DNA of 64,000 bases, from assembly GCA_018056375.1 (NCBI GenBank), contig JAGPFQ010000002.1:75344-139343 (forward strand), read 5' to 3'. The DNA is from Candidatus Dojkabacteria bacterium (lineage in GTDB: Bacteria > Patescibacteriota > Dojkabacteria > SC72). Below the pieces are notes generated by a model, which worked only from the letters and a program-made list of their open reading frames with translations, was not told the DNA's origin and made no database searches. The position numbers were made by a program, and so were the translations under genes. The number at the start of each line of letters is the position of its first letter. Positions within the stretch are counted from its first letter, which is position 1. This document shows, piece by piece, positions 4,533 to 58,332 of the stretch.

Positions 4533-4698
4533 AGTACGGTTACCTTCGCGGTTTGTTCTTTTCTAGTAAGGACTATAACGGTTTTTCAGTGATTTTTTAA
4601 TATGCTATAAGATGAGAACTTGTAGTATGTTAAATATGTTGTCATGATGCTATATAGTTCTTTTTGTAGTAATACTTTACCGCGAAGGTAACCGTAAC
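4533..4698. mobile_element. MITE-like palindromic repeat, copy 1 (TIR ACGGTTACCTTCGCGGT ... ACCGCGAAGGTAACCGT)
   Basis: 17-bp perfect terminal inverted repeats at 4536-4552 and 4679-4695. Internal segments (gtaaggactataacgg..., cttgtagtatgttaaatatg, tagttctttttgtagtaata) are shared with copies at 22844-23019 and 24002-24177. Lies between two tRNA-Ala genes. Confidence 0.7.
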
Positions 4699-4713: not shown

Positions 4714-4722
4714 TGGTATAAT
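4714..4722 (+). promoter_or_regulatory. Extended -10 TGGTATAAT upstream of tRNA-Ala(GGC)
   Basis: TGGTATAAT 11 nt upstream of the tRNA 5' end. Confidence 0.4.
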
Positions 4723-20634: not shown

Positions 20635-21654
20635 ATGATAGGGAGAAAATTAGGAATAGATTTAGGAACAGCAAACTCAGTGGTTTTCCTCCAAGGAGAG
20701 GGTGTAGTTTTGACAGAACCTACAGTTGTAGCTATAGATTTGGATACTTTTACTGTTGTTGCAGTAGGTAAGGATGCTAAGAAAATGATTGGTAAGACAC
20801 CTGATAATATAATTGCAAAGAGACCTCTTAGAGATGGTGTAATTGCTGATTCTAGAATAACAGAGGCACTTTTGAAACACTTTTTTGATAGGGCTCTTGG
20901 TAGAGCTAGATTTTTTAAACCAGATGTTGTTATGAGTGTACCTGCAGGAATTACTTCTGTGGAGGAGAGGGCTGTACTTAAGGCTGCCAATGCTGTTGGT
21001 TCTAAGACAATAACGTTGCTTCCTGAACCTCTTTTGGCTGCTTTGGGAGCAGAATTGCCAATTCATACATCTTCAGGGAATATGATTGTAAATATGGGTG
21101 GTGGAACCACCGAGGTTGCTGTAATGTCTTTGGATGGTATTGTAGAATATGAGTCTCTAAAGGTAGGAGGAGATGCTCTTAATGAATATATAATTTCATA
21201 TATGAAGAAGAATAAGGGTATCATGATAGGTGAGCAGACAGCTGAGAATATTAAAATTAGGATTGGTTCTGCTGTTGAAGTGAAAAAGCCAAAGCAGATG
21301 GAGATTAGAGGAAGAGATGTTGGAGCTGGTATGCCTAAATCAGTTATTGTTGATTCTAATGATGTTGTAAAAGCATTAGAATTTCCACTTAAGAAGATGA
21401 TAGAAGGTATCAAGAGTGTTTTAGAGAAGACACCACCGGAACTATCGGCTGATATTATTGATCGTGGTATGGTTATGAGTGGTGGTACGGCTAAGCTGAG
21501 AAACTTAGACAAGCTTTTCTCGAGAACAACAGGAGTTCCTGCCCATATAGCAGATGAAGCTCTTTTCTGTGTTGCAAAAGGTACAGGTATTGCTTTAGAA
21601 TTATTAGCAACAGGTGAGAGAAAATTCTCATTTAACAAAGAATTTAGAAGATAA
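20635..21654 (+). CDS. mreB: Rod shape-determining actin homolog MreB (paralog 1)
   Basis: LGIDLGTANSVVF phosphate-1 motif and an actin/Hsp70 fold, 339 aa. Confidence 0.85.
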   Translation: MIGRKLGIDLGTANSVVFLQGEGVVLTEPTVVAIDLDTFTVVAVGKDAKKMIGKTPDNIIAKRPLRDGVIADSRITEALLKHFFDRALGRARFFKPDVVMSVPAGITSVEERAVLKAANAVGSKTITLLPEPLLAALGAELPIHTSSGNMIVNMGGGTTEVAVMSLDGIVEYESLKVGGDALNEYIISYMKKNKGIMIGEQTAENIKIRIGSAVEVKKPKQMEIRGRDVGAGMPKSVIVDSNDVVKALEFPLKKMIEGIKSVLEKTPPELSADIIDRGMVMSGGTAKLRNLDKLFSRTTGVPAHIADEALFCVAKGTGIALELLATGERKFSFNKEFRR

Positions 21655-21674
21655 TTTTTAAGTTTTGTATTCCA

Positions 21675-22826
21675 ATGTTTGACAAAAAGAAAAAAGAGAT
21701 GACATTGCAAGAAGTAACTGCACTTCTTGAGCAACTTAGATTACCAACAGCACTTGTCTTTACACCTCTTAATCTTGAGTCAGAGAAAAAGAAGTTTTTT
21801 GATTCTGATACATACGAACCATATTTTAAATACAGAATAGTTAAGAATGATAATGAAAAAATTCTTGATAAACTTTCTAAGGTTGAATTAATCTCCGATG
21901 TTGATCCAAGAATTTCCAAATTCTACATTGATTTAATTACATCTAAAGCACAAGCAAATGATTTAATGTATGCTGTAGGAAATAACCAGAAAGTTACAGA
22001 GATTTCAAAAGATAGATTTGGTATTCCCTCTCCAATTCTGTTTAGGAATGCTGCTAGGGTAATGAGAGGTGTTGTAAAGAACTACCACTTAGCGAAGAGT
22101 CCTTCAAAAACAAAAGATGTGTTAGGATATGATGAGATAGTTAAGGTATTTGACGGTGTGTTTAATGAATTGGGGTTAGAAGGGTGGGCAGTAGAGAGGT
22201 CAATAAATATATCCAAAAATGGAATTAAGATTGGTGTGAAGCGAAAACAAGTACTAGTTAATGAGGAGATTCAGAGGAGTAAATTTGCATTGAGAAAATC
22301 AATTGTGCATGAAGTTGGTACACATGTGCTTAGATCTGTAAATGGAAAAAACACGGGTTTCACAGCACTTGGAAATGCTAATTTACCAGCATATCTGGAT
22401 GTTGAGGAAGGGTTGGCAACGTGGAACGAGAGTGAAATGGGGGTGTTAACAGAGGATGGTTTGAAGAAGAAAGCTGCCTATGTTTATGCAATTAAGATAG
22501 GGGAGAATATGTCATTTAGACAGTTGTACAATGCTCTTCTTGGTTCTCTACCTAAATATTCAGCTTTTAATATAGTGTATAGGGTAAAGAGGGGTTTAGC
22601 TGATACAGCTAAACCAGGTATCTATACAAAAGATATTGTGTATTTTAGAGGTTTTAGAAAAGTGTTAAAGAAACTAGGTGAGGATAAATCATTATATCCA
22701 CTTCTGTATGCAGGTAAGATCGATTTTAAGCAATGTGATTGGGTTAGAGAAGGTTTGATACCTAAAGCAAAAATAGTCCCATCTAAAGAAATGTGGAACA
22801 AGATATTTACGAAGGTTGGGATATAG
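21675..22826 (+). CDS. DUF1704 / QEGLA-motif family protein (gluzincin-like HExxH metallopeptidase fold; the eukaryotic KIAA0895/MATCAP family)
   Basis: HEVGTHVLR HExxH motif, downstream EEGLATW (QEGLA-like) motif, ~380 aa, the typical family size. Confidence 0.55.
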   Translation: MFDKKKKEMTLQEVTALLEQLRLPTALVFTPLNLESEKKKFFDSDTYEPYFKYRIVKNDNEKILDKLSKVELISDVDPRISKFYIDLITSKAQANDLMYAVGNNQKVTEISKDRFGIPSPILFRNAARVMRGVVKNYHLAKSPSKTKDVLGYDEIVKVFDGVFNELGLEGWAVERSINISKNGIKIGVKRKQVLVNEEIQRSKFALRKSIVHEVGTHVLRSVNGKNTGFTALGNANLPAYLDVEEGLATWNESEMGVLTEDGLKKKAAYVYAIKIGENMSFRQLYNALLGSLPKYSAFNIVYRVKRGLADTAKPGIYTKDIVYFRGFRKVLKKLGEDKSLYPLLYAGKIDFKQCDWVREGLIPKAKIVPSKEMWNKIFTKVGI

Positions 22827-22843
22827 AACAGAAGAAAGAAGAG

Positions 22844-23019
22844 CCAGGTTACCTTTGTCGTATACCCTTTGGTCGTAAAGACTATAACGATTTTTTATCC
22901 GATATTTAACATACTACAAGACACTAGATAAAGCTTCTAGTATGTTAAATATCGTATTAGAAGTTCAATATAGTCTTGTTGTAGTAACGATATACGGATA
23001 TACGACAAAGGTAACCTGG
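22844..23019. mobile_element. MITE-like palindromic repeat, copy 2 (22-bp TIR CCAGGTTACCTTTGTCGTATA)
   Basis: Perfect 21-22 bp terminal inverted repeats, an internal palindrome atatttaacatactacaag / cttctagtatgttaaatat, shares gtaaagactataacga and tagtcttgttgtagtaacg segments with copies 1 and 3. Ends at 23019, directly abutting the TAA (minus) stop of the gene at 23020. Confidence 0.75.
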
Positions 23020-23949
23020 TTAAATAAATGCAGTGATAATGGCTTCTGCTATATTCACAGGTTTCCCTTCAATCTTTGTTTCGTATGCTTTATATCCTGG
23101 ATGGAAACTCCACTCTTGGACTGCAGGTTTTCCATTGATATACATAAAATCAACAGCCATAAAGTCTGCATGGAGTAGGGAAGCTACTTTTTCTGCTATG
23201 GTTTTAATCTCTTCATTTGGTTCGTTGTACATCTCATATTCACCTTTACTTACTGTCATAAAACTGCCTTTTGCATATCTCTTCCATCCACCAATGATTT
23301 TACCTAATTTAACAAAAACTCTGTAATCTTCACCAGAATTAGAGAACTCTTGTAAGAAGAAGTCTGGATTTAGCTTGTATTCATCTTCTTTTTCAATCTT
23401 AAATACATTCTTCTTTATCTTTTCCTTACCATCTATTACCTCAACTCTGTTTTTACCAGTATAGTCTTTGGTAATTAGTGGAAAATCTTTTAGATAATCT
23501 CTCTCTTCTGTGTAGTTTCCATCTGTTCTGAAGTATGTATTAAAATATGGGATGTTATTTATTGAACAGAATTGTGCCATTGCAATTTTGTTGTAGTAGG
23601 GGAATCTCTTTATAGCTTCAGCATTTTGTACTAATATGTTTTTATCTGGATTCTCTTTGTTGTACTGTTCTGCGAAATCAATAATATATCTTTTATAGTG
23701 ATATTCTTGGTCATTATGTAGGGCATGTCCTCTGAATATTATATGTGAATACTCTGCAATATCCTTTCCATTAGCTGTTATTATAAACCTACCATTATTT
23801 AATATAAATTCTAATTGGTCATTGTATATGAAATCTTGTTCTATATTCCTTTTGTCTAACTCTTCTAACAGTCTTGCAGAACTTGTTGGTATATCTAGTT
23901 TCTTACCAATTTCACCTCTCTGTCTTTTATCTATGATGAGATATTTCAT
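23020..23949 (-). CDS. ATP-grasp fold ligase (possibly tubulin-tyrosine-ligase/RimK-like), bracketed by two MITE copies
   Basis: C-terminal ATP-grasp signatures DYRVFVKLGKIIGG and ADFMAVDFMYINGKPAVQEWSFHPG, 309 aa. Confidence 0.5.
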   Translation of the reverse strand: MKYLIIDKRQRGEIGKKLDIPTSSARLLEELDKRNIEQDFIYNDQLEFILNNGRFIITANGKDIAEYSHIIFRGHALHNDQEYHYKRYIIDFAEQYNKENPDKNILVQNAEAIKRFPYYNKIAMAQFCSINNIPYFNTYFRTDGNYTEERDYLKDFPLITKDYTGKNRVEVIDGKEKIKKNVFKIEKEDEYKLNPDFFLQEFSNSGEDYRVFVKLGKIIGGWKRYAKGSFMTVSKGEYEMYNEPNEEIKTIAEKVASLLHADFMAVDFMYINGKPAVQEWSFHPGYKAYETKIEGKPVNIAEAIITAFI

Positions 23950-24001
23950 ACTTTTCTTGCTCTATTAAATTATCTATCTAATTTTATCATTTTTTAGTTC
24001 T

Positions 24002-24177
24002 TCCGGTTACCTTCATCGTATATCCTTACTACAATAACACTATATCGAGTTTTACATATGATATTTAACATACTAGAAGCTTTTATTTGAACAAGAGTAC
24101 CTTGTAGTATGTTAAATTTCTACTTAAAAATGATAATAGTCTTTACTCAGAAAGAGTATACGATGAAGGTAACCGGA
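24002..24177. mobile_element. MITE-like palindromic repeat, copy 3 (inverted relative to copy 2; TIR TCCGGTTACCTTCATCGTATA)
   Basis: The reverse complement aligns along its length with copy 2. Terminal repeats are perfect within the copy. Ends at 24177, abutting the TAA (minus) stop of the gene starting at 24178. Confidence 0.75.
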
Positions 24178-25881
24178 TTATATAATTTTTATCTTTTTAA
24201 TATATCCCTTACTTCTATACCTCTTTACAATCTTCATCTCTTCTTGATTTTCAAGCTCCTTACTCACAACTAATAAATCAATATTATTAAATCCTAAACC
24301 ATCACTCTTTACAGCATCCCAATCCCTATGATGAATAATTATGCCATCTAGTAAAGCATTAACCTTAAGTGCTTCAATACCTCTCCATTTCTCTAATCCA
24401 CTATTAATCTCTAACCCATTAATTCTTAAATATCCATCCTTGTATTCTCCAACTACTTCGTTTTCAGTAAAGTATGAACCAAAGAAATTCTTCTCTCTTA
24501 ATACAGTTAGAACATCTGGTAGACTACTTCCCACTACAACAACCTTTTTTGTTTTGTTGTCTTTTAGTAATTTCTTAACAAATATATCTATTACATATGA
24601 CCTGTCTTCCCCTAATACTGGGAAGAGATTAAGGTATGCTTCAGGCATTGTGTTAACCTCGAGGATACCTCCATTCTCTTGAGTAAGAGGTTCACTAATA
24701 TCTTTACAAAGTACATCAACTCCGACAACAAATGCATGTATAGAGGAAGCTATACTCTCTGCAACATACTTAATCTCATCAGAGACCTTGTCTGTAAAGT
24801 CCTCTGTTATACCTCCTTGACTCATACTAGCTACTTTTCTTACTTGTATTTTTTCATCCTGTTTTGGAATACTCTCTAATGTAAGGTCTTGCTCTTTAAG
24901 ATAGTCGAGTAGTGGTTGATCTATCTTTATTGGTTTTAATGTATGAGTAGGGTTAGTAACATCTCTTCTGGGGTCTTTGTTCGTTTCATCTAATAATTCT
25001 TGTATAGTACTCTTACCATCACCTACGATAAAGGCAGGGATTCTTTTTGTTGCTACCTCTAACTTACCATCGATAACTAGTAGCCTGTAATCTTCTCCTG
25101 GTACTTGTTCTTGAATCATTATCTTTCTCTGCCATGCTTCTCTCTCTTTACCATCAATGGCTTTTTGTGCGAAATCAAATGCCTTCTTTGCTTCCTCTAC
25201 TGTGTTTATACCAACTACAACACCACTTCCTCCAATTAATCCTGTGGGTTTGATTACAACTGGTTTGTTGTATTCACTCCATACTTCATCTATCTGGCTC
25301 TTGTTATCTAATGTTTCCCACTTAGGGATTGGTAGACCAAGTCTTGATATCATGAGATTGGTAGACCATTTATCCTTCTGCATCTCTTTTGCTATTTTAG
25401 AATCTTTGCTAGAAGAGATAGAGAAGATAATTTCAGAGCCTTTTCCACATCCAATTGTATGATGTCTGTTGTATCCTTTCATATATCCAGGTTTATCTGT
25501 ATCTAGAATTTTATTGTCTATAATTGTGGGAGTGATTTCATAACCCAAGGTGTATGCAGAGTGGAGTACTGGGATAGTGGACATAGATGCAACTCTCTGT
25601 TTGATTAATGTTTCAACAATATATTCTCTACATTCCTCATATGATATCTTTCTTTCTGCTAGCTTTTGTAAGTATTCACTTGCTTCTCTCCAAAGAAAGG
25701 CAGTTCTTGTTTCAATGTAAAGATAGCCTTGTGTGGAGTAATATTTTTCTATAAATAGTGGGTGAAAGCTACTGATTAAATCCAAAAGTTTCTTTACTTC
25801 TTCTGTTTCTTCTATCTCAATAATGATAGTTGAGTAGGGGGATATTAAGTTTAAACCTTGTAATACTTGTACTTTTTTCAT
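24178..25881 (-). CDS. Cyanophycin synthetase (CphA) G-domain-like ATP-grasp ligase lacking the Mur-ligase-like domain
   Basis: The segment DYRLLVIDGKLEVATKRIPAFIVGDGKSTIQELLDETNKDPRRDVTNPTHTLKPIKID matches the CphA ATP-grasp core (DYR[LV]LVV...HV[IV]GDGK.TI.ELI...N.DPRRG..H...L). 567 aa versus ~870 for CphA; the C-terminal ~120 aa is not Mur-ligase-like. Confidence 0.65.
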   Translation of the reverse strand: MKKVQVLQGLNLISPYSTIIIEIEETEEVKKLLDLISSFHPLFIEKYYSTQGYLYIETRTAFLWREASEYLQKLAERKISYEECREYIVETLIKQRVASMSTIPVLHSAYTLGYEITPTIIDNKILDTDKPGYMKGYNRHHTIGCGKGSEIIFSISSSKDSKIAKEMQKDKWSTNLMISRLGLPIPKWETLDNKSQIDEVWSEYNKPVVIKPTGLIGGSGVVVGINTVEEAKKAFDFAQKAIDGKEREAWQRKIMIQEQVPGEDYRLLVIDGKLEVATKRIPAFIVGDGKSTIQELLDETNKDPRRDVTNPTHTLKPIKIDQPLLDYLKEQDLTLESIPKQDEKIQVRKVASMSQGGITEDFTDKVSDEIKYVAESIASSIHAFVVGVDVLCKDISEPLTQENGGILEVNTMPEAYLNLFPVLGEDRSYVIDIFVKKLLKDNKTKKVVVVGSSLPDVLTVLREKNFFGSYFTENEVVGEYKDGYLRINGLEINSGLEKWRGIEALKVNALLDGIIIHHRDWDAVKSDGLGFNNIDLLVVSKELENQEEMKIVKRYRSKGYIKKIKII

Positions 25882-25883
25882 AT

Positions 25884-26888
25884 CTATTCTTTTGAATTTA
25901 AATATTTATCCCTAATATATTCCATAATTGGAATAGCTACTTTAACCTGTTCACCTTTATCTACTTTGTAGTGTAATCTTAATCCTGGGTTGTAGTTAAT
26001 TTCATTGACAGCACATTCATCTGGTTTTGTAATATCTTTTGCAATGATATCTACACCTCCAAACTCTGATCCAACAGTCTTTACAGCTTTGATAGCTAAC
26101 TGTCTGTAGAAGTCGTGAGTTTCTTTTGCACACTCTTCTGTTGTTCCTCCTGTAGTAAGATTGCAGTTGTATCTTAATATCTGCTCTTTTCCTTTTTCAA
26201 CTACAGACTCTAGGTTAAGATTATCTCTCATGAGTTTGAGCATGACCTCATTATCTATTGGTATTGGTAGTAAACCTTTTTCCTTTCGTGATATATTCTC
26301 TAGTTCTATCAGCTGTCTTACTGTGTGTTCTCTATCTCCAACTACATGTGCTGCCTTTCTTCTTACGATACCAATAACTTGATTTCCTAGAACTAGAAGT
26401 CGGTAGTTTTCACCATGTATGAATTCTTCTCCTATAACTTTTTTATCATCAGAAGGTGCATGGGAAGAATCAAAAGCAATCTTAAATGCTTTCAATACCT
26501 GTTCTTCACTCTGTGGAAGGATAGATACACCTTTACCACCTAATTGTTGAGTTGGTTTAATTACTATATCCTTATACTTATCGTAGAATTTAATAGCATC
26601 CATCTCGCATGTGAGAATCTCTTGTTCTGGAACTTTTACCCCCTGTTCTTTCAACACCAAATGTGTCAAATTCTTCCTTTTACATATTGTTGTACTGGGA
26701 GTAGGGACTAATGGAGTTACTGTGTTTATAATGAACCAATGTTTGTTTTCAACAGAAAATTTTGCCATGAGACCTGGAACTAATACTTTGTAGTTGATTC
26801 CTAGAATATCTGCAGCCTCAACGTAGTAGGAGAGATGGATATTCCCAGCTATCTGAATGTATTTCTTTTTGTCTTTATCTTCCTCCAT
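25884..26888 (-). CDS. ATP-grasp ligase, CphA/RimK-like (short form)
   Basis: ENYRLLVLGNQVIGIVRRKAAHVVGDREHTVRQLIELEN resembles the CphA/glutathione-synthetase-type ATP-grasp motif, 334 aa. Confidence 0.6.
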   Translation of the reverse strand: MEEDKDKKKYIQIAGNIHLSYYVEAADILGINYKVLVPGLMAKFSVENKHWFIINTVTPLVPTPSTTICKRKNLTHLVLKEQGVKVPEQEILTCEMDAIKFYDKYKDIVIKPTQQLGGKGVSILPQSEEQVLKAFKIAFDSSHAPSDDKKVIGEEFIHGENYRLLVLGNQVIGIVRRKAAHVVGDREHTVRQLIELENISRKEKGLLPIPIDNEVMLKLMRDNLNLESVVEKGKEQILRYNCNLTTGGTTEECAKETHDFYRQLAIKAVKTVGSEFGGVDIIAKDITKPDECAVNEINYNPGLRLHYKVDKGEQVKVAIPIMEYIRDKYLNSKE

Positions 26889-26913
26889 GATGTTTTAAAT
26901 TATATTCAATATA

Positions 26914-28362
26914 TTATTTAAACGTCTTACTGGTGTCAATCAAATATCCTTTCAGATCTTCTTTTCCAAACATTACATGATACTCTAGGTCAGGAACTAC
27001 AACAGTTTCAATCTCTCTTTCTTCTCCTGTTATTCTAACTTTAATCTGTATAACAGGGTAGATATTTACAAAATCTCCTTCTACAATTTTTGCAATTCTA
27101 ACAATACCATCTTCCATTGTAAGCTTTTGAAGATTAGCATCAATATATTCCTGTGCTTCTTTAAGTGATTGGAAGTTTTTGGGAACATTCAAACTCCTAA
27201 AATATTTTGTTGTTGATATATATCCAATTCTATTCGCAAATGTCTCAGAGATTCTAGATGTTAGAACACCTGTATCCATAAAAGCTTTGGCAACTTCTCT
27301 TACTTCTTTTCCTTTTTTTCTTTTCTTCAGGTGTGTAACAAGTATTCTCTCGTTAATATTCACAACCTTTCTACCACTGATAGCCTCAATGCTTTCCTCT
27401 ACTTCTCCTCCAAAGAGACTTTTTGCCAACCTTATCCCATGCTTTATCCCTTTCACTTCAATATCCTTAACTTTTTCTAATCTCCATCTCAAACCTGCTT
27501 TGTTTGCTACCTGTATACCTAATCCGGGTCTAGCATTTAACTCAAAGACGATAGGGCCTTTCTCAGCATCAAGAGCAATATCAACACCGAGATATCCTAA
27601 CTTTGAAACTCTTTGACACTTGAGAGCTATTTCAAGAATATTATCCCAATCAGGAATTTGAATACCACTAAGAAGTTTGTTTTCTTTCAAATCTTGTGTC
27701 ATTTCAATATCTTCATATCTATCTGAGAAAAGTGAGGATGTATCCATCTGCATAGAGTAGGTGGTAATACCTGTTGCGATATCAATACCTGTACAGATAG
27801 CACCAGAATGTAGATTAGCTGTACCATCTGATCTTTTAGTAGGTATTCGAGCCATAGCCATGATTGGGACACCGTTAAAACAGATAACTCTAATATCAGG
27901 AACTCCTTTGTAGGAGTATTGTTTGAGTAAAGAGTCTGTTTTTACTCTCTCTTCAAGAATGGCAATATCTTTCTTGTTTCCCATTGAGAACCTACCTTCT
28001 AGTATATTCTCAATATGTAGAATGATGTCATTTTTTGTCATTACATTTCCACTAGGTCTAATCCATGCCATTTCACCTTTCTTTTTACCATAGAAGACAA
28101 CGATTCCATTTCCTCCTGTACCCTTGTTTGGCTTAATTACAAAACTTTTAGGTAAACTCTCCCAATCTAGAAACTTAAGTTGTAGTTTTGATCTGATTAG
28201 CTTGTAAACTTCTGGAGATTTAATTCCTTCTTTTGCTATTAATCTCTTTGTTGCAATCTTGTTGTCAACAAGTCTTTTCGCAGAAGGAGGATTGTATGGT
28301 CTAATATATTCCTGATTCCTCCTGTTTAATCCCAAAATGTCTTTGTAGTGGTTGTTAATCAT
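26914..28362 (-). CDS. RimK-like alpha-L-glutamate-ligase-related ATP-grasp fused to a C-terminal retropepsin-like (DTG) putative protease domain
   Basis: N-terminal LGLNRRNQEYIRPYNPPSAKRLVDNKIATKRL and GVPDIRVICFNGVPIMAMARI...GYLGVDIALDAEKGPIVFELNARPG (ATP-grasp); C-terminal ~170 aa contains MDTGV (aspartic protease D-T-G). 482 aa. Confidence 0.6.
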   Translation of the reverse strand: MINNHYKDILGLNRRNQEYIRPYNPPSAKRLVDNKIATKRLIAKEGIKSPEVYKLIRSKLQLKFLDWESLPKSFVIKPNKGTGGNGIVVFYGKKKGEMAWIRPSGNVMTKNDIILHIENILEGRFSMGNKKDIAILEERVKTDSLLKQYSYKGVPDIRVICFNGVPIMAMARIPTKRSDGTANLHSGAICTGIDIATGITTYSMQMDTSSLFSDRYEDIEMTQDLKENKLLSGIQIPDWDNILEIALKCQRVSKLGYLGVDIALDAEKGPIVFELNARPGLGIQVANKAGLRWRLEKVKDIEVKGIKHGIRLAKSLFGGEVEESIEAISGRKVVNINERILVTHLKKRKKGKEVREVAKAFMDTGVLTSRISETFANRIGYISTTKYFRSLNVPKNFQSLKEAQEYIDANLQKLTMEDGIVRIAKIVEGDFVNIYPVIQIKVRITGEEREIETVVVPDLEYHVMFGKEDLKGYLIDTSKTFK

Positions 28363-29035
28363 CTTTTTTTATCTTTGTTGCAGATTTAAATCTGAAATAG
28401 TCACTTAATCTTAAACCTCTAAATTGACCAATCAAGAGGTTAAATACTATCAATGCTGGAACAATCCATAGGTTATTAATTACATATGTTGCAGCAAATT
28501 CTCTTGTAATCACAAACCAACCAACTGTTGCTACGAGTAGGGTACCTATAAATGAGGTTAGTGATGATTTGAAAGACTTTTGAACTAATTGCTTAATGAA
28601 GAAGTCTGAAAGTGTTGCAATCGAAATTAATGCTAGTGGTGGAATATTTGCTATATTTTCTAAACCTAGTTTGTATTTATTAGCAATTAGTATAAATCCA
28701 GTAATTGCCATGGTTAGTAAGCAGTAGTTGATAGCGATTCTTGTGATGTAGTGCATTCTAATTTTTCGAAGCAAGTAGTGAGATAGAAGGGTGGTTAGAA
28801 TGACTACTATTGTTGTAGCCAAGCCGTATTTTAGACCGGTGTACGAGTATGCTATTGCTAAGATAATGGGGGCATATATACCGTAGCTTTTAGTACCAAG
28901 AATGTATCTAAAGATACTTACAATGGTAGCCACTATTGTAATAGCTACAAGTAATTCAATTGTTTTTTCTGGTAAACCATTTTCGATTAACCAGCTTGTA
29001 AATGGAGAGTAATTCACTGTTCTACAAAATGACAA
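28355..29035 (-). CDS. Seven-transmembrane protein (7TM module of the 7TM-transglutaminase-associated ATP-grasp systems; no transglutaminase domain)
   Basis: 226 aa with seven predicted hydrophobic helices. First gene of a co-directional, tightly spaced or overlapping five-gene minus-strand cluster with the ATP-grasp genes. Confidence 0.5.
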   Translation of the reverse strand: MSFCRTVNYSPFTSWLIENGLPEKTIELLVAITIVATIVSIFRYILGTKSYGIYAPIILAIAYSYTGLKYGLATTIVVILTTLLSHYLLRKIRMHYITRIAINYCLLTMAITGFILIANKYKLGLENIANIPPLALISIATLSDFFIKQLVQKSFKSSLTSFIGTLLVATVGWFVITREFAATYVINNLWIVPALIVFNLLIGQFRGLRLSDYFRFKSATKIKKDD

Positions 29036-29222
29036 TTTAATGTTTTTATAATAGCAGATTTATGACTTAATTATACCATTTTTAGAGAGGAAAAGATAGT
29101 AATAAGAACTGTGGTTACCTTGTGAGATTTGCCAGTGTGTATCTGGACTATTATCGTTTTTAGTCAAAAAGTTAATGTACTATAGGTGTGTTGCCTTGCA
29201 ATTTGATTAGTAACTTGGTGTA

Positions 29223-30326
29223 ATGAATGAGATGAAGAAGGTCTTGATATTTACTGCCGGCGCTGGTGCTGGACATGTATCGTGTTCTAATGCACTTAAG
29301 AATGCATTATTAGAAAAAAATAAAAACTGGGAAGTAGAAATAATCGATATGTATCTACTTTCAAAAACTACCTCTAAAAATGGTCATCTTTACTCTTTAG
29401 TTAGTCGTATACGCCTCTTTGAAGCTGTATACAATCTAATTCATATATTAGTAGATAAATATAGATGGTTTGCTAAGCTTGCTGAATTTGTTGCTCTTAG
29501 ACCAATGTACAAACCAACTTTGAAGGTCATAGAGGAATATAATCCTGATATTGTGGTGGGAAATAATGCATTGTTAATACCAGTATTAGATTGGTGTCGT
29601 AAAAGGAAGGAATTTAAATATTTTGTTACTGTTACAGATCTAATAACTGTTTGTAGATGGTGGGCTAGTGAATTAGCAGATACAGTTTTTGTACCCACAG
29701 AGGAAGCTGAGAAGACACTGAAGGCATATGTTCCTAACTGTAACATTGCACGTGACTATTTCTCTTTTAGGGAAATAAAGCCTCTCTCTAAAGAGGAGAA
29801 GATGGAAGTATTTGAGCATTTCTTTTCAGGAACGACATTTAGTCCTACAAAACCTTTGATTGTGGTAACAGGTGGTGGTTTCTCAACAAGAAAAATAATG
29901 AAGGGTATTAAAAAGTATATTGAATCTTCTCATCATCAGTTTGTAATTCTAACTGGAAGAGACAAGGTGTTGTATGATGAGTTGCAAGAGGAGTTTGCAG
30001 GAGATGATAATGTCTTGATTCTTGGCTTTACGGATAGGAATTTAGATTTGATAGCAATTGCAGATGTCGTTATATCAAAATTTGGTTCTGTTAGTGTTGT
30101 AGAGATAGAGGAGATGAACAAAAAGACCATATTTACAAAACCTGTTGGTTATCAGGAATATGGAAATGTTGAATATATTAAGAGAAACAGGAATTTTGTA
30201 TTTGTAGGTAATAACTACAGACAAGTAGTTATTGAAATAGAGAGTTTCTTAATAGAAGACTATGAACCTTCAACTGCCCATATTCAAAATGCTAATGCAA
30301 TAGTTGAATATATCTTACAAAAATAG
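29223..30326 (+). CDS. GT28-family glycosyltransferase (MGDG synthase / UgtP-like diacylglycerol glycosyltransferase)
   Basis: N-terminal KVLIFTAGAGAGHVSCSNALKNAL resembles the MGDG_synth/UgtP N-terminal motif, 367 aa. Confidence 0.55.
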   Translation: MNEMKKVLIFTAGAGAGHVSCSNALKNALLEKNKNWEVEIIDMYLLSKTTSKNGHLYSLVSRIRLFEAVYNLIHILVDKYRWFAKLAEFVALRPMYKPTLKVIEEYNPDIVVGNNALLIPVLDWCRKRKEFKYFVTVTDLITVCRWWASELADTVFVPTEEAEKTLKAYVPNCNIARDYFSFREIKPLSKEEKMEVFEHFFSGTTFSPTKPLIVVTGGGFSTRKIMKGIKKYIESSHHQFVILTGRDKVLYDELQEEFAGDDNVLILGFTDRNLDLIAIADVVISKFGSVSVVEIEEMNKKTIFTKPVGYQEYGNVEYIKRNRNFVFVGNNYRQVVIEIESFLIEDYEPSTAHIQNANAIVEYILQK

Positions 30327-32078: not shown

Positions 32079-35000
32079 ATGGAAATAACTAAAAAGCCCA
32101 ATATACCACAACAAACAGCTAGTGTTAGTAACAAGAATCAAACAGATGTTACTTCTTGGATAAAAAATAACAGTTTTACAAACTCTAAGGAGAATATGAT
32201 AAAGCTTGTTGTATTAGCACTTTTGGCTTTTCTTCTTCCGTTTTCTGTAGTTGTATCATCTGCAACATACAGTAAGTATGATTTTTTCAAAAAAGATCAG
32301 GTAACTGAAGGTGATGTATTAGGTGCTGGTGAAGCTGTTTGTCAGGAGGATAAGGTGTGTGGAATGGTTGGTTTAGGAGGTTGTGTAGCTAGAGCTGAGT
32401 GTTTGGAGAATGAGTTTGCTTGTGGGGAGGGTGCTGATATGGTTTGTTGTGATAAAGGGGAGTGTCAGGAATGTTCTCCATGTATAGATGGTTTTCAGGC
32501 AGAAGCAAATGAGTGTGGAGAGGTGACAAAGAGTTGTGAGAGTGTTGATTGTACAGGTGGAGTTTGTGGTGAGGTAGAGAGTGTTTGTTATCCGGTGAAA
32601 TATAAGGTGACTTATGGTACCAAGGAAGGAAAATGTCCTGAGCCAGAGGAGGTTTGTCCTGGAACTGCTAACAAGGCTCCTGAGTGTAGTAGTAATACTG
32701 CTACTGTACAGGAATATACTTTGATTAGTGGTACTTGTGAAGGATTTGATACTAAGACAGGGGTTTGTAATGAAGTTGTGGAAGATCTTGAAGTTGGTGT
32801 TGTTTGGGAGCCAATGGTTTTACCTAAAGGTTCTCCACTGATGGGTGCAAAGGGTGGTGCAGGGATCAGGGCAATGACAGCACCTAGTATTAGTAGTGTC
32901 TCTCCTACGAACTATTCTTTTCTAGGTGGTGGTAGTATGACAATTAATGTCTCTAATATTGTTGACACGGAACAGTTTGATATTGTTGCTTCTGGAGGTA
33001 ATCATACTTGTGGAATAAAGAGTGATGGTTGGGCCTACTGTTGGGGGTATAACTATCACGGTCAATTAGGTGATGGAACTAATACGAACTCTTCGGTACC
33101 TGTAAAAGTTGCCCAAGGTGTAATTCCAGAAGGAGTGGGATTGAAAGAAATTACAGCTGGTAGTACTCATACTTGTGTGATAGGGACGAATGATAAGGCT
33201 TACTGTTGGGGCTACGGTGCTAATGGTCGACTAGGTAATGGATCTACAAGTAATAGGAATACTCCTGTTGCAGTTAATACTACAAGAACATTTAGAGGTA
33301 TTGTTGCTGGAGGTGGTCATACGTGTGCGTTTGGTGATATAGAAATGTACTGTTGGGGATTAAATAGTTCAGGTCAATTAGGTGATGGTACTACAACTCA
33401 AAGAACAACTCCTGTTCAAGTTAATCGAGGGGATATACCTGCAGGCACTGGTCTTTATAGTCTCACTGCAGGAGATTCTCATACTTGTGTACTTGATACA
33501 GGCAATGTTATTGGAGGGGGTGGTCCCATAGTGTCTGCAGTTTCAAATGTTAAAGCATATTGTTGGGGGAATAATCAATATGGTCAAGTGGGGGATGGTA
33601 CTACAACAACCCCGAAAACGACTCCTGTAGGTGTAGATTTTATAGCTTTTGGTACACCGAGCCCTTTTAAGAAAATAAATGCAGGTGGTTATCATACTTG
33701 TGCAATAAATGGTAATGATGTTACTTACTGTTGGGGGTTGAATAACGGAGGTCAATTGGGTGATAACAGCACAAATAATGCTTCCAGACCAAAAGCTATT
33801 AATCAAGGTAATATTCCTACAGGAGAAACATTGGAAATGCTGTCTCTTGGTTTATATCACTCTTGTGCCATAGCTAGTAATGCAAAAGCATATTGTTGGG
33901 GGCAGGGTCAATATGGTCAGTTGGGGAATAGTGGCACGGGAGGATCTTATACTCCTGTAGCTGTAAGTCAAGGAGCAATTCCTACTGGGATAGGAATTGC
34001 CAATATGGGGACAGGTAGTTACCATGGTTGTGTGAGAGGTAGTAATGGAAAACTATATTGTTGGGGACAGAATACCTATGGTAAGTTAGGAGATGGAACT
34101 ACAACTACTCCAAGAACTTCTCCAGTGGCTGTTGTAGATGCTGCAGGTGCAAATACGTATGAAATAAATATAGGGAATAATACATTGACAAGAACACTGA
34201 CTCCTGGAACTACGAGTATATCTGTAAGTCCAATACTTGCACATACTCCAGGTACAGTGTCTATATATATAAAGAGGTTAACAGATAATGTTAACTCTAA
34301 CAGTGTTTCTTTTGTATATAGCAATTTCCCTGCACCGAGCATTTCTAATGTAAATCCTAATACTATTGGTCAAGCAGGAGGAGAGACAGTCAGTATTACA
34401 GGGTCTAACTTCCTTGATTACAATGTGTTTGGGAGTGTTGTTAGTATATCAGCAGGTATGTTTCATTCTTGTGCAATTCAGGAAGAAGGTGCTTTTTGTT
34501 GGGGAAGAAATAATTATGGTCAGTTAGGTGATCGTTCTATAAACCAGAGAAATACTCCTGTTCTTGTGGATAAGGGAGATATTCCTGCAGGAGTGTCTCT
34601 CAGTAGTATTAGTGTAGGGAGTTATCATACTTGTGGAGTTGGAAGTAATTATAAAGCTTACTGTTGGGGGTATAACAATGCCGGGCAGCTAGGTGATGGT
34701 GGTAGTGTAACTAGTAGTGATTCTCCTATTGAAGTTCAGACAAGTGTGACCTTTAAGAGTATCAGCGCAGGTGGTTATCATACTTGTGGCATAAGTACTG
34801 ATAATTGGGCATACTGTTGGGGACAGGGAACATATGGTAAGTTAGGTAATGGTGGTACGACTGATTCCTCAATACCAGTAGCTGTCAATCAGGGGGCTAT
34901 TCCAAGTGGAGTCTCATTGATAAGTATCAGCGCAGGTGCTAATCATACTTGTGCTATAGGCAGTGATGATTGGGCTTACTGTTGGGGACAGGGAACATAT

Positions 35001-37205
35001 GGCAAGTTAGGTAATGGTGGTACTGCTCAATCCACAGAACCTGTGGTTGTGAGTAATGGAGGCATTTCAACAGGAACAAGGCTTGTTAATATTAGTGCAG
35101 GTACTAATCATACCTGTGTTATAGGGGCTAATTGGGCGTATTGTTGGGGACAGGGAAGTTATGGGGAATTGGGGAATGGTGGTACTGCTAATTCCTTAGT
35201 ACCAGTAGCTGTTAGCCAAGGCGCTATTCCAGTGGGAGCAAGGCTAGGAAACATTAGTGTTGGTGGTAATCATACTTGTGCTATTGGTGATGGTGATATA
35301 GGAGTTCACTGCTGGGGATATAATAACACTGGTCAATTAGGAGATGGTAGTAATACTCAATCTTTGACACCAGTATTTGTTCTTACAGGGGCGAGTTCTG
35401 TTATTAAACAAGTGTGTATATCTAGTGGCTCAAATCATACTTGTTCTGTTAATTATAATGGTCAGGCATACTGTTGGGGACAGGGAACATATGGTAAGTT
35501 AGGAAATGACTCTACTACTAACACCCCCACTATGAGTTATGTATTACTAAAAGGTTTAACTCCAACCATAGATTTTGATACAACTCCTGCTACGAGCACC
35601 ACATATACATCTACAACATCTATGAGTGCAGTAACTCCTCCACTTACAGCATCTGGGACAATACCACTAAAACTAACTAATCCAGATGGTCAATATGCTA
35701 CATATAACATAACGGTGAAAGCACCACCTTCAGCTCCACAAAATCTAACTGCAACTGCAGGAAATAAACAAGTAGTATTAAGCTGGACAGCTCCAAGTTC
35801 TCCAGGTAGCTCTCCTATTACAGACTACATAGTTGAATATAGTACAGATAACAGTACATGGACTGTATTTAATGATGGTACATCAACAAGTACTACAGCA
35901 ACAGTTACCGGTCTAACTAATGGAACTTTGTATTACTTTAGAGTAGCAGCAGTAAATACAGTTGGGACAGGGAAATATAGCAATACTGCATCAGCAACAC
36001 CCTTTAATGCACGTCCTGTATTCTCAGCAATATCAAATAACTCACCTAGTGGTACACCTAAGAATCCAGGAGACTCAATTACTTGGAATGCAACAGCATA
36101 TGACCCTGATTCAAATCAAGTGAAGTTAATAGTTTGTGATTCTCAAGGTATAACAGGGGGTATATGTAATGGGACAGAATTATGTTCAAGTTCTTTGGTA
36201 ACTTCTAACCCCTCATGCTCACATACAGCTACACCTCCTTATGCAGCAGGTCCTCATGATGCATATGTTTATGTGTTTGATGGTGAAGGTTTAGCAGCAT
36301 CAGGTGGAGTACATAATACTAATAGTGTCTTTTATATAAACAATGTAGCACCTTCAGTATTATCAGTAACACTTAATAGTGGTAATGCTATTACTTTACT
36401 AGAGAGTACAACCACATCTGTTTCTATTAAAACTCAAATAGAATCTAATAATGGTTGTCAGTCAATAGGGACAGTAACAGCATATCTATATAGATCAGGG
36501 AAGGGCTATACCTACTGTAACAAGGGGGCTGATGCAGATAACAACTTTTGCTATTCAGAAATCTCCTGTATACGAGATGCTGGAGAATGTACAGCTCCAT
36601 ATGGAAAAACAGCAAGGTATACCTGTACTGCAAGTGTCTGGTACTATGCAGACCCAACAGATAACAATACTGTATATAGTAGCGAAAACTGGCTAGCTAC
36701 AGTAAAAGCATTGGGAGGTGGTGGTACTGTTGGTACTGCCCAATCCTCAACAGGAGTAGAGATGAATTCATTAATAGCTTTTGATGTTACTAGCTCACTA
36801 AACTATGGTGATCTTCTTGTCTCTGAAGTTACGGATCCATTAAGTAAAGTATTGACAACTACTGCCACTGGTAATGTTGGTATCAATCAAAACCATTCTG
36901 GTGAGGGTATGGGGATGTGTGTAGACTATAATGATCAACATAATCCATGTTCTGTTGGTACTCCGATAGGGCTCGCTCAGCAGAAGTATAGCACTTCTGC
37001 TTCGACAAGTTATACAGATCCAACAAAAGCAATAGCTTTAACGCCTTCAGCTACTTTGGTTCAGCTAAAAATTCCCAAAGTAACTTCAACTCCTACATCA
37101 GCTAATACTTGGTGGGGCATATCTATTCCATCAAATATATTACCAGGTGCGTACGAAGGAAGAAACAGAATTGAGGCAGTCAAATCTGCTATCTCTGATT
37201 GGTAG
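32079..37205 (+). CDS. Giant secreted/surface protein: Cys-rich N-terminal module, ~21 RCC1 (beta-propeller) repeats, fibronectin type III domain and Ig-like/Cys-rich C-terminal modules
   Basis: Signal/TM at the N-terminus; repeated units ...GGNHTC(G/A)I..DG.AYCWG.N.YGQLG(D/N)G.T...; FN3 PSAPQNLTATAGNKQVVLSWTAP...YYFRVAAVN; 1708 aa. Near-identical DNA repeats between propeller blades at 34800-35510. Confidence 0.75.
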   Translation: MEITKKPNIPQQTASVSNKNQTDVTSWIKNNSFTNSKENMIKLVVLALLAFLLPFSVVVSSATYSKYDFFKKDQVTEGDVLGAGEAVCQEDKVCGMVGLGGCVARAECLENEFACGEGADMVCCDKGECQECSPCIDGFQAEANECGEVTKSCESVDCTGGVCGEVESVCYPVKYKVTYGTKEGKCPEPEEVCPGTANKAPECSSNTATVQEYTLISGTCEGFDTKTGVCNEVVEDLEVGVVWEPMVLPKGSPLMGAKGGAGIRAMTAPSISSVSPTNYSFLGGGSMTINVSNIVDTEQFDIVASGGNHTCGIKSDGWAYCWGYNYHGQLGDGTNTNSSVPVKVAQGVIPEGVGLKEITAGSTHTCVIGTNDKAYCWGYGANGRLGNGSTSNRNTPVAVNTTRTFRGIVAGGGHTCAFGDIEMYCWGLNSSGQLGDGTTTQRTTPVQVNRGDIPAGTGLYSLTAGDSHTCVLDTGNVIGGGGPIVSAVSNVKAYCWGNNQYGQVGDGTTTTPKTTPVGVDFIAFGTPSPFKKINAGGYHTCAINGNDVTYCWGLNNGGQLGDNSTNNASRPKAINQGNIPTGETLEMLSLGLYHSCAIASNAKAYCWGQGQYGQLGNSGTGGSYTPVAVSQGAIPTGIGIANMGTGSYHGCVRGSNGKLYCWGQNTYGKLGDGTTTTPRTSPVAVVDAAGANTYEINIGNNTLTRTLTPGTTSISVSPILAHTPGTVSIYIKRLTDNVNSNSVSFVYSNFPAPSISNVNPNTIGQAGGETVSITGSNFLDYNVFGSVVSISAGMFHSCAIQEEGAFCWGRNNYGQLGDRSINQRNTPVLVDKGDIPAGVSLSSISVGSYHTCGVGSNYKAYCWGYNNAGQLGDGGSVTSSDSPIEVQTSVTFKSISAGGYHTCGISTDNWAYCWGQGTYGKLGNGGTTDSSIPVAVNQGAIPSGVSLISISAGANHTCAIGSDDWAYCWGQGTYGKLGNGGTAQSTEPVVVSNGGISTGTRLVNISAGTNHTCVIGANWAYCWGQGSYGELGNGGTANSLVPVAVSQGAIPVGARLGNISVGGNHTCAIGDGDIGVHCWGYNNTGQLGDGSNTQSLTPVFVLTGASSVIKQVCISSGSNHTCSVNYNGQAYCWGQGTYGKLGNDSTTNTPTMSYVLLKGLTPTIDFDTTPATSTTYTSTTSMSAVTPPLTASGTIPLKLTNPDGQYATYNITVKAPPSAPQNLTATAGNKQVVLSWTAPSSPGSSPITDYIVEYSTDNSTWTVFNDGTSTSTTATVTGLTNGTLYYFRVAAVNTVGTGKYSNTASATPFNARPVFSAISNNSPSGTPKNPGDSITWNATAYDPDSNQVKLIVCDSQGITGGICNGTELCSSSLVTSNPSCSHTATPPYAAGPHDAYVYVFDGEGLAASGGVHNTNSVFYINNVAPSVLSVTLNSGNAITLLESTTTSVSIKTQIESNNGCQSIGTVTAYLYRSGKGYTYCNKGADADNNFCYSEISCIRDAGECTAPYGKTARYTCTASVWYYADPTDNNTVYSSENWLATVKALGGGGTVGTAQSSTGVEMNSLIAFDVTSSLNYGDLLVSEVTDPLSKVLTTTATGNVGINQNHSGEGMGMCVDYNDQHNPCSVGTPIGLAQQKYSTSASTSYTDPTKAIALTPSATLVQLKIPKVTSTPTSANTWWGISIPSNILPGAYEGRNRIEAVKSAISDW

Positions 37206-58262: not shown

Positions 58263-58332
58263 CCCCTCGAGTTCTTCACCATTTGATGGTAAAATTACTG
58301 AGTAATTAATTATAAATATTTTGTTCATTAGT

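What the first reader, a model, noticed from the sequence alone, without database searches (positions are those of the whole stretch)
22844..24177. One ATP-grasp gene is precisely bracketed by two inverted MITE copies that abut stop codons
Copy 2 ends at 23019 and the gene's TAA (minus strand) occupies 23020-23022. Copy 3 (inverted orientation) ends at 24177 and the upstream gene's TAA occupies 24178-24180; its other end sits 52 nt upstream of the ATP-grasp start codon. Both insertions therefore sit immediately 3' of a TAA on the coding strand, suggesting a TA/TTA target preference. Placed in operon intergenic positions they could form long hairpins that terminate or attenuate transcription and decouple the last ligase gene, or they may mark a composite-transposon-like mobilisation of that gene.
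Basis: seen in the sequence. Interest (0 to 1): 0.6.

Follow-up and report, generated by a model that had tools for sequence, protein, structure and literature searches.

The report
Hairpin repeats flank an ancestral ligase gene
Two copies of a previously undescribed 176-base foldback (MITE-like) repeat from Candidatus Dojkabacteria sit in the two spacers around an ATP-grasp ligase gene that was always part of this operon, so the repeats did not bring the gene in, though they probably split it off as its own transcription unit and lie in a stretch that has been swapped between lineages.

Summary
Two 176-nt near-palindromic repeats (22844-23019 and 24002-24177) bracket the 309-aa RimK-like ATP-grasp gene. 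Each touches a TAA stop codon, and one ends 52 nt upstream of the gene's start codon.

They belong to a low-copy family. The window holds three full copies and one half copy, and I found about 17 sites across several Candidatus Dojkabacteria (CPR) genomes. Defining features are invariant GGTTACCTT/AAGGTAACC ends, two conserved inner boxes, and arms that covary. No Rfam family, phage, plasmid or cognate transposase matched.

Related genomes without the repeats keep the same gene order, with the 567-aa and 309-aa genes only 1-45 nt apart. The gene is therefore ancestral, and capture by a composite transposon is refuted.

Contact with the stop codons is specific to this lineage; orthologous copies lie 10-14 nt away. 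A TA target could not be confirmed.

A conserved extended -10 box follows copy B, which fits uncoupling of the last ligase gene. That step is inferred, not shown.

One unexpected result: the segment from copy B through the ligase gene and copy A to the MATCAP-like gene groups with a different lineage than its neighbouring genes. It has been exchanged by recombination.

Overall this is a new member of a known kind, of modest interest.

The parts
22844..23019 (+). Copy A: 176-nt foldback repeat in the convergent spacer between the MATCAP-like gene and the 309-aa ATP-grasp gene. Strand given is the family-model orientation.
   Evidence: 156 bits on +, 114 on -. Hairpin MFE -79.7 kcal/mol, z -13.8. 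Orthologous copies at L013 4621-4788, L004 7044-7178 and L054 12941-13075. Absent in L085.
24002..24177 (-). Copy B: 176-nt foldback repeat between the stop of the 567-aa ATP-grasp gene and the promoter-like region of the 309-aa gene.
   Evidence: 155 bits on -, 122 on +. MFE -65.6 kcal/mol, z -9.5. Present in L085 7773-7948, L004 5287-5421 and L054 11215-11349. Absent in L013 and in L078, L080, L082, L086 and L087.
4535..4696 (+). Copy 1: 162-nt family member between tRNA-Ala(cgc) and tRNA-Ala(ggc).
   Evidence: Occupied orthologous sites in L007, L006, L071, L016 and L088 (opposite orientation in L088). Empty 25-nt spacer in L089.
29110..29186 (+). Solo arm: one arm only, from the GGTTACC terminus to the hairpin apex, lying between the divergent promoter-like boxes of the 7TM/ATP-grasp operon and the GT28 gene.
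   Evidence: nhmmer hit to model positions 4-77, sequence. By my count on the alignment, 90.6% identical to the Ga0255347 orthologue L054 6217-6317, while the adjoining spacer does not align.
23020..23949 (-). 309-aa RimK-like ATP-grasp ligase (G309), the bracketed gene.
   Evidence: Pfam PF08443. 63-100% identical homologues throughout Dojkabacteria. Same position in all orthologous loci.
24178..29035 (-). Upstream part of the operon: 567-aa ATP-grasp, 334-aa RimK-like, 482-aa ATPgrasp_ST and 226-aa 7TM_transglut genes.
   Evidence: Synteny.
21675..22826 (+). MATCAP/DUF1704-like peptidase gene, convergent with G309. Part of the laterally exchanged segment.
   Evidence: Pfam PF08014. Identity matrices.
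23981..23989 (-). TGATAAAAT, an extended -10-like box 31 nt upstream of the G309 start codon and just downstream of copy B.
   Evidence: Read. Conserved as TGATAAAAT or TGATAGAAT in the window, L013 and L004. Function as a promoter is inferred.
4714..4722 (+). TGGTATAAT, an extended -10-like box between copy 1 and tRNA-Ala(ggc).
   Evidence: An equivalent TGNTATAAT is present in all relatives, including the empty site in L089.

Best explanation
Identity. Copies A and B are two members of a low-copy family of 135-177-bp foldback repeats. The family is MITE-like and non-coding, and is confined to several lineages of Candidatus Dojkabacteria (CPR/WS6). Each copy is one long imperfect palindrome with:
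- invariant GGTTACCTT/AAGGTAACC ends;
- conserved inner boxes (GACTATA/TATAGTC and TTTAAYATRCTA/TAGYATRTTAAA);
- variable blocks in between that stay complementary between the two arms.

Origin of the arrangement. The copies bracket the 309-aa ligase gene because both of its spacers tolerate insertions, not because they carried the gene.
- Copy B was inserted into what was originally a 1-45 nt intercistronic spacer of a conserved locus (7TM-transglutaminase-like, four ATP-grasp ligases, and a MATCAP-like peptidase gene convergent with them).
- Copy A lies in the convergent spacer with the MATCAP-like gene. In relatives that spacer holds quite different inserts.

Likely effect (inferred, not shown). 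When transcribed, each copy forms a hairpin of roughly 60-65 predicted base pairs across its ~80-nt arms. This would work as a transcript boundary or double-strand-specific RNase processing site, as reported for Correia and ERIC elements. Together with the conserved extended -10 box just downstream of copy B, it would make the last ligase gene a separate transcription unit. Two of the three full copies in the window share the same layout: 3' end of one unit, then the repeat, then the extended -10 of the next unit.

Recombination. The repeats also lie in a recombination-prone stretch. The segment copy B - G309 - copy A - MATCAP has been exchanged between two Dojkabacteria lineages, and close relatives have each had one of the two repeat sites replaced.
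For: Family and structure:
- Three full copies and one solo arm in the window.
- About 17 distinct sites in DUTP01, DATERJ01, JBMNHB01, JAXHAP01 and metagenome contigs, and none outside Dojkabacteria.
- Hairpins with z-scores of -9.5 to -13.8.
- Covariation: 96.9% of cells paired against 88.6% in shuffles; 51 cells with a change on both sides against 15.8; 0 of 500 shuffles reach the observed values; slid controls give about 40% paired.

Gene is ancestral:
- Identical gene order in L078, L080, L082, L086 and L087, with G567-G309 spacers of 15, 24, 1 and 45 nt in L078, L080, L082 and L087 (750 nt with an antisense ORF in L086), and no repeat at either site in any of the five.

Transcription-unit layout:
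- TGATAAAAT conserved downstream of copy B in three genomes.
- TGGTATAAT downstream of copy 1.
- The solo arm lies between two conserved divergent promoter-like boxes.

Presence and absence:
- Site B is missing in DUTP01.
- Site A is missing in JAXHAP01.
- Site 1 is empty in L089.

Exchange between lineages:
- DATERJ01/Ga0255347 is closest to L087 and L078 for ST482 (79/78% against 74% to the window). For G567 it is 73/77% against 71%.
- It is closest to the window clade for G309 (87% against 77-80%) and for MATCAP (84% against 77%).
- Synonymous third-position identity to the window is 76% for G309 against 62-67% in other lineages, and 66% for MATCAP against 51-57%.

Analogy: RNase III cleavage, promoter effects and in situ inversion of Correia elements are described in PMC10969869.
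Against: - There are no expression data, so boundary or processing activity is pure inference.
- There is no U-tract after the hairpin on the sense strand at site B, and the terminator scan finds nothing there.
- No target-site duplication and no cognate transposase were found in about 0.72 Mb of fetched sequence or in the 64-kb window. Mobility is inferred only from dispersal and from presence/absence.
- Orthologous copies evolve at roughly the rate of nearby synonymous sites. In situ compensatory changes (1-2 per pair) do not clearly exceed chance. Only the solo arm shows obvious constraint.
- Orientation relative to transcription is not fixed. L088 and the DATERJ01 site B copy are antisense.
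- Arm covariation could arise from co-evolution of transposase-binding ends or from gene conversion between the arms, rather than from selection on a hairpin.
- The JAXHAP01 mosaic could be a MAG assembly chimera.
Confidence: 0.6

Rival explanations
1. Inert relics. The copies are old, selfish foldback or MITE insertions with no role for the host. They persist only because these spacers tolerate them. Arm complementarity reflects their origin as inverted repeats plus gene conversion between arms. Contact with the stop codons comes from deletion bias trimming spacers in a very compact genome.
For: - Substitution rates in paired and unpaired positions are similar: 14% against 19% at site 1 between the window and DATERJ01.
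- Single pair-breaking changes are as common as compensatory ones.
- Close relatives tolerate loss of either copy.
- Copy orientation differs between orthologous sites.
- Copy number is low.
Against: - The solo arm is 90.6% identical between lineages whose adjoining spacer cannot be aligned.
- The inner boxes are invariant in 16 of 16 copies.
- The layout 'unit end - repeat - extended -10' recurs.
Confidence: 0.3
2. DNA-level protein-binding module. The conserved boxes (GGTTACC, GACTATA, TTTAACATACTA) are binding sites for a regulator or nucleoid protein. Full copies are inverted dimers of the site array, and solo arms are single arrays placed next to promoters.
For: - Solo arms keep all three boxes without any partner arm.
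- The window's solo arm sits between two divergent promoter-like boxes and is strongly conserved.
- Box sequences are invariant while the sequence between them varies.
Against: - The variable blocks between the boxes stay complementary between arms. A site array read as duplex DNA would not require this.
- No candidate binding protein was identified.
- Copies also lie between tRNA genes and in convergent 3' spacers.
Confidence: 0.08
3. Composite-transposon-like cassette. The two inverted copies mobilised the ATP-grasp gene into this locus.
For: - Inverted copies do flank exactly one gene.
- In DATERJ01 the gene is flanked by direct repeats of about 300 nt, made of the repeat plus a second hairpin.
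- The gene shows discordant similarity between lineages.
Against: - The gene occupies the same position in every Dojkabacteria operon examined, including five without the repeats, with spacers as short as 1 nt.
- The discordant segment also includes the MATCAP-like gene beyond copy A.
- No transposase was found and no target duplication flanks the pair.
- Allelic replacement by homologous recombination explains the data.
Confidence: 0.02

Closest known systems
Correia repeat-enclosed elements (CREE/NEMIS) of Neisseria
   Same: Non-coding intergenic repeats of about 100-200 bp with inverted ends, often next to or between genes and co-transcribed with them as hairpins. Reported effects include RNase III cleavage, promoter creation and in situ inversion (PMC10969869, read). 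Orientation flips at orthologous sites are also seen here.
   Different: There is no sequence similarity. Correia elements have a TA duplication (my own knowledge) and more than 100 copies per genome (PMC10969869); no duplication could be shown here and copy number is low. Here the whole element is one palindrome whose arms covary right out to the tips.
ERIC/IRU, RUP, BOX and SPRITE small repeats of enterobacteria and pneumococcus
   Same: Imperfect palindromes in transcribed intergenic regions that can alter the stability of flanking mRNA or mimic terminators. They cluster in the same spacers (PMC10969869; PMC3184786 listed). Several unrelated hairpin families share site B and site A in relatives here too.
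   Different: Different hosts and sequences. SPRITE-type elements carry terminator-like U-tracts, which are absent here.
REP/BIME elements with RAYT (Y1) transposases, and IS200/IS605-derived palindromic elements
   Same: Mobility that depends on hairpin structure, with no target duplication, would explain arm covariation and the missing duplication. Y1_Tnp genes lie in the very same convergent spacer in L078 and L087, and elsewhere in L062.
   Different: REPs are 20-40 nt and G+C-rich (my own knowledge). The repeats flanking these Y1 genes (TTTTCATCGTTTTTTAATCTTACTAT; GGCAGACCTAGGYCAGACC) do not resemble the GGTTACCTT family. No Y1 gene is present in the window.
Eukaryotic foldback elements
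   Same: The element is essentially two long inverted arms with little or no unique middle. Half elements exist.
   Different: Foldback elements are eukaryotic, much larger and often have subrepeated arms. This comparison rests on my own knowledge and is only a formal analogy.

Membership tests
MITE (miniature inverted-repeat transposable element) | Short (under about 500 bp) with no coding capacity | tested here: met
   Copies are 135-177 nt, with one of 266 nt. No meaningful ORF.
MITE (miniature inverted-repeat transposable element) | Terminal inverted repeats | tested here: met
   GGTTACCTT/AAGGTAACC is invariant in 16 of 16 aligned copies, and the arms pair along nearly the whole length.
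MITE (miniature inverted-repeat transposable element) | Multiple dispersed copies in a genome | tested here: met
   Three full copies and one half copy in 64 kb. Five or six copies found in DATERJ01 by a strict pattern. About 17 distinct sites overall.
MITE (miniature inverted-repeat transposable element) | Target-site duplication of fixed length or sequence | tested here: inconclusive
   TA on both flanks at 3 of 11 sites. Orthologous copies of site 1 have different flanks. The empty sites (L089, L078) are too diverged to place the junction.
MITE (miniature inverted-repeat transposable element) | Filled and empty orthologous sites | tested here: met
   Site B is empty in L078, L080, L082 and L087. 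Site 1 is empty in L089. Sites A and B are each missing in one close relative, but by replacement of the whole spacer rather than clean excision.
MITE (miniature inverted-repeat transposable element) | Cognate autonomous IS with matching ends | tested here: not met
   No pair of GGTTACCT ends encloses a transposase ORF in 0.72 Mb of fetched loci. No transposase in the window. Complete genomes could not be scanned.
REP/BIME mobilised by RAYT | Palindromes of 20-40 nt that flank a Y1 transposase gene of the same genome | tested here: not met
   The elements are four to eight times longer. The Y1 genes found in relatives are flanked by unrelated repeats.
Intrinsic (Rho-independent) terminator | G+C-rich stem followed by a U-tract on the transcribed strand | tested here: not met
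   The scan finds no terminator at either site. The sequence after copy B on the sense strand is AGAACTAAAAAATG. After copy A it is C/U-rich on the minus strand and TTAAATAAA on the plus strand. Canonical terminator-like hairpins occur in relatives at these sites instead.
Composite transposon | Cargo gene absent from the orthologous position in genomes that lack the flanking elements | tested here: not met
   The gene is present at the same position in five repeat-free loci.
Any curated RNA family (Rfam 15) | Match at or above the family's gathering score | tested here: not met
   Only tRNAs pass in the window. A permissive scan of 22700-24300 gives plant miRNA-precursor models at 21-27 bits against thresholds of 110-195, which are generic long hairpins.

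The most novel reading that the evidence does not exclude
The family is not a classical transposase-and-inverted-end MITE. It would be a hairpin-templated (foldback) element: a unit of about 78 nt, the 'solo arm', is copied into a perfect palindrome. The structure rather than the tip sequence is what propagates or is selected. The resulting hairpins have been co-opted in these minimal CPR genomes as insulators between transcription units, and as portable homology that promotes allelic exchange between lineages.
Probability: 0.12. Interest if true: 0.6.

Novelty: new member of a known kind. Interest (0 to 1): 0.33.

Why it matters
CPR bacteria have tiny, tightly packed genomes, and my literature searches found no description of small repeat elements in Dojkabacteria.

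If the inferences hold, this family would show three things:
- such genomes still carry structured foldback repeats;
- one insertion can turn a translationally coupled last gene of an operon into a separate unit;
- repeat-bearing spacers coincide with breakpoints of recombination between lineages.

For annotation, the practical message is simpler. The bracketed ATP-grasp gene is a core, vertically syntenic member of a conserved amidoligase/MATCAP-like locus. It is not mobile cargo.

Tried and rejected
- Rfam at gathering and permissive thresholds: no family matched.
- Phage, plasmid and viral-contig searches with the element: no true hit. L034/L084 is a chance pattern match with no extended inverted ends.
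- Search for an autonomous parent: paired GGTTACCT ends 300-6000 nt apart occur only around G309 itself.
- Y1 transposases near the sites in relatives: their flanking repeats are unrelated.
- Target duplication from filled and empty sites: the empty sites found are too diverged, or the whole spacer was replaced.
- Strand asymmetry as evidence for an RNA role:
  - The model-orientation strand usually folds better (for example -63.5 against -39.5 kcal/mol at site 1).
  - The same holds for L088, where that strand is antisense to the tRNAs.
  - The window also has a strong G>C skew.
  - I therefore dropped this argument.
- In situ compensatory evolution between orthologous copies: 1-2 events per pair, not clearly above chance.
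- Promoter and terminator consensus scan across 21500-29400: nothing above shuffle expectation.
- Literature search for Dojkabacteria MITEs: none.
Full report
**Observation**

- A 176-nt element at 22844-23019 is followed immediately by TTA at 23020-23022. This is the TAA stop of the minus-strand 309-aa ORF 23020-23949.
- A second 176-nt element at 24002-24177 is followed immediately by TTA at 24178-24180, the stop of the 567-aa ORF 24178-25881.
- The second element's other end lies 52 nt from the ATG of the 309-aa ORF.
- The 21-nt terminal motif occurs only at these four ends; none of 100 shuffles gave any match.
- The two copies align at 85% column identity with two 8-nt indels.
- A third copy lies at 4535-4696 between two tRNA-Ala genes.
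- A covariance model built from 16 family members finds exactly these three full copies in the window.
- A half copy, one arm only, lies at 29110-29186.

Three qualifications apply.
- Each copy is itself almost a perfect palindrome, so 'inverted orientation' rests on a small margin: 138/167 identical when inverted against 129/162 when direct.
- Copy A lies between convergent genes, 17 nt from the stop of a MATCAP-like gene.

**What the element is**

- Each copy folds into a single long hairpin. RNA MFE is -79.7, -65.6 and -63.5 kcal/mol, with z-scores of -13.8, -9.5 and -10.0.
- Pattern scans of the genome and metagenome collections, filtered with a profile, recovered true copies only from Candidatus Dojkabacteria. 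Sources are the MAGs DUTP01, DATERJ01 and JBMNHB01 and digester metagenome contigs, with JAXHAP01 found later. This gives about 17 distinct sites.
- The 16-copy alignment shows invariant GGTTACCTT/AAGGTAACC ends and invariant inner boxes (GACTATA/TATAGTC and TTTAA-ATACTA/TAGTAT-TTAAA).
- Between the end motif and the first inner box lies a sub-terminal block that differs from copy to copy but always stays complementary between the arms.
- Covariation counts:
  - 96.9% of cells are paired, against 88.6% in shuffles.
  - 51 cells have a change on both sides, against 15.8 in shuffles.
  - 0 of 500 shuffles reach the observed values.
  - Slid controls give about 40% paired.
- Rfam has no matching family. 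Phage, plasmid and viral collections have no copy.
- No transposase is encoded in the window.
- No transposase ORF bounded by these ends was found in 0.72 Mb of fetched loci.

**Gene context and orthologous loci**

The bracketed gene is a RimK-like ATP-grasp ligase. It is the last gene of an operon encoding a 7TM_transglut protein, an ATPgrasp_ST ligase and two further ATP-grasp ligases. The operon is convergent with a MATCAP/DUF1704-like peptidase gene and an MreB paralogue.

The 309-aa protein has 63-100% identical homologues throughout Dojkabacteria. The same gene order is found in all more distant loci retrieved: L078/79, L080/81, L082/83, L086 and L087.
- These loci have no repeat at either site.
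- The 567-aa and 309-aa genes are separated there by only 15, 24, 1 and 45 nt in L078, L080, L082 and L087. L086 instead has a 750-nt spacer that holds an antisense ORF.

The gene is therefore ancestral, and copy B is an insertion into a very short intercistronic spacer. Acquisition of the gene by a composite transposon is refuted.

The convergent spacer that holds copy A is a hot spot. In relatives it holds a Y1 transposase gene (L078, L087), an HD-domain gene (L082) or small membrane ORFs (L080, L086).

**Stop-codon contact and target site**

- In DATERJ01 (L004) and the Ga0255347 contig (L054), the orthologous copies lie 10-14 nt from the stop codons.
- In the L002/L017/L062 site, the stop codon of a YbeY gene lies 29 nt inside the repeat.
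- Exact contact with the stop codons is thus a feature of the window clade only. Since the original spacers were tiny, any non-disruptive insertion had to lie close to a stop codon.
- TA occurs on both flanks at 3 of 11 sites, which is more than chance would give. Orthologous copies of site 1 nevertheless have different flanks.
- The one empty site-1 spacer found (L089, 25 nt) is too diverged to place the junction.
- A TA/TTA target is therefore unproven.

**Likely effect**

Downstream of copy B, and conserved in the window, DUTP01 and DATERJ01, is TGATAAAAT. This is an extended -10-like box (window 23981-23989, minus strand), 31 nt upstream of the start codon. Repeat-free relatives with 1-24 nt spacers have no room for such a promoter.

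Copy 1 has the same layout: tRNA-Ala(cgc) 3' end, then the repeat, then TGGTATAAT, then tRNA-Ala(ggc). The solo arm sits between two conserved divergent promoter-like boxes. It is 90.6% identical (my count on the alignment) to its orthologue in a lineage whose adjoining spacer cannot be aligned.

I infer that the hairpins mark boundaries between transcription units and that the last ligase gene is now separately transcribed. The hairpin would act as a barrier or a double-strand RNase site, as described for Correia and ERIC elements (PMC10969869).

This step is inference, and several points count against it.
- There is no U-tract terminator signature.
- There are no expression data.
- Orientation relative to transcription is not fixed.
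- Orthologous copies evolve at about the rate of nearby synonymous sites.

**Recombination**

Close relatives differ at the two sites by replacement of the whole spacer.
- DUTP01 is about 94.5% identical to the window. It has copy A, but carries two unrelated hairpins in place of copy B.
- JAXHAP01 is about 96.5% identical to the window. It has copy B, but lacks copy A.
- In JAXHAP01 the ligase gene is 100% identical to the window for about 600 nt. The last roughly 200 nt of the gene are then 100% identical to the distant L086 lineage, and the adjoining spacer also derives from an L086-like allele (its small ORF is 98.5% identical at the protein level). This is either very recent recombination or a MAG assembly chimera.

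At greater depth the gene trees disagree.
- DATERJ01/Ga0255347 groups with L087 and L078 for the upstream ligase genes. ST482 is 79/78% identical to L087/L078, against 74% to the window. G567 is 73/77%, against 71%.
- It groups with the window clade for the 309-aa gene (87% against 77-80%) and for the MATCAP-like gene (84% against 77%).
- Synonymous third-position identity to the window supports this. It is 76% for G309, against 62-67% in other lineages, and 66% for MATCAP, against 51-57%.

The segment from site B through the ligase gene and copy A to the MATCAP-like gene has therefore been exchanged between lineages. Its left edge falls at copy B. This is homologous allelic replacement, not transposition, and it extends beyond the bracketed gene.

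**Unexplained features**

- The arms are complementary out to 1-3 nt beyond the invariant heptamer and through a hypervariable block. This is unusual for ends recognised by a transposase.
- Solo arms correspond exactly to one arm, from the tip to the apex, and form their own subfamily.
- Orthologous sites can hold copies in opposite orientation.
- In DATERJ01 the repeat plus a second hairpin form direct repeats of about 300 nt around the gene.
- These features leave room for a foldback, structure-driven mode of propagation, but I could not test it.

**Verdict**

The element is a new, clade-restricted member of the well-known class of small palindromic intergenic repeats. The composite-transposon idea is wrong as stated. 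The stop-codon and TA-target idea does not generalise. Interest is modest.

Noticed in passing
window 4832-5614 and 5687-6106: The GH1 beta-glycosidase gene downstream of copy 1 is split into an N-terminal piece (Pfam positions 4-221) and a C-terminal piece (329-452). Relatives have one intact 424-aa gene. This is likely a pseudogene or an internal deletion in this genome.
   Followed up: partly
window 32079-37205: A 1708-aa protein made of many RCC1-like blades plus an fn3 domain. The 165-nt periodic direct repeats reported by the repeat finder are its blades.
   Followed up: partly
window 20635-21654 and 58321-59382: There are two MreB paralogues. One is always adjacent to the MATCAP-like peptidase and the four ATP-grasp ligases in every Dojkabacteria locus fetched. 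The other sits with MreC and PBP2. The conserved linkage of an actin-like protein with ligases and a MATCAP-type carboxypeptidase may be worth separate study.
   Followed up: no
L078 7999-8445; L087 9013-9465; L062 3604-4215: Y1 (IS200/RAYT-like) transposase genes. In L078 and L087 they sit in the same convergent spacer that holds copy A in the window. The L078 gene is flanked by 26-bp inverted repeats, and the L062 gene by REP-like GGCAGACCTAGGYCAGACC repeats. Neither resembles the GGTTACCTT family.
   Followed up: partly
L004 5422-5593 and 7179-7318; L013 5814-5878; L086 7255-7325; L087 2876-3030: Other hairpin repeat families occupy the same spacers in relatives. They include CTCACCAAATT/AATTTGGTGAG palindromes, canonical terminator-like GCCTAGG/CCTAGGC stems with A and T runs, and a 155-nt hairpin with ACCTGGTCTGTCAATTT ends that shares the TTTAACAT box.
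   Followed up: partly
L085 8700-9200 (JAXHAP010000003.1): There is an abrupt switch from 100% identity with the window to 100% identity with the distant L086 lineage inside the 3' part of the ligase gene. This is either very recent inter-lineage recombination or an assembly chimera. Many genes in this contig are also fragmented.
   Followed up: partly
window 1816-3081 and 46672-47271: Rho and NusG are encoded in the window, so factor-dependent termination is available. This may explain why spacers without a U-tract terminator are tolerated.
   Followed up: no
L016 185-820 and L090 4486-5052: In two lineages a NUDIX hydrolase gene has been inserted between the two tRNA-Ala genes, next to the site-1 repeat position. 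That spacer is therefore another insertion hot spot.
   Followed up: no
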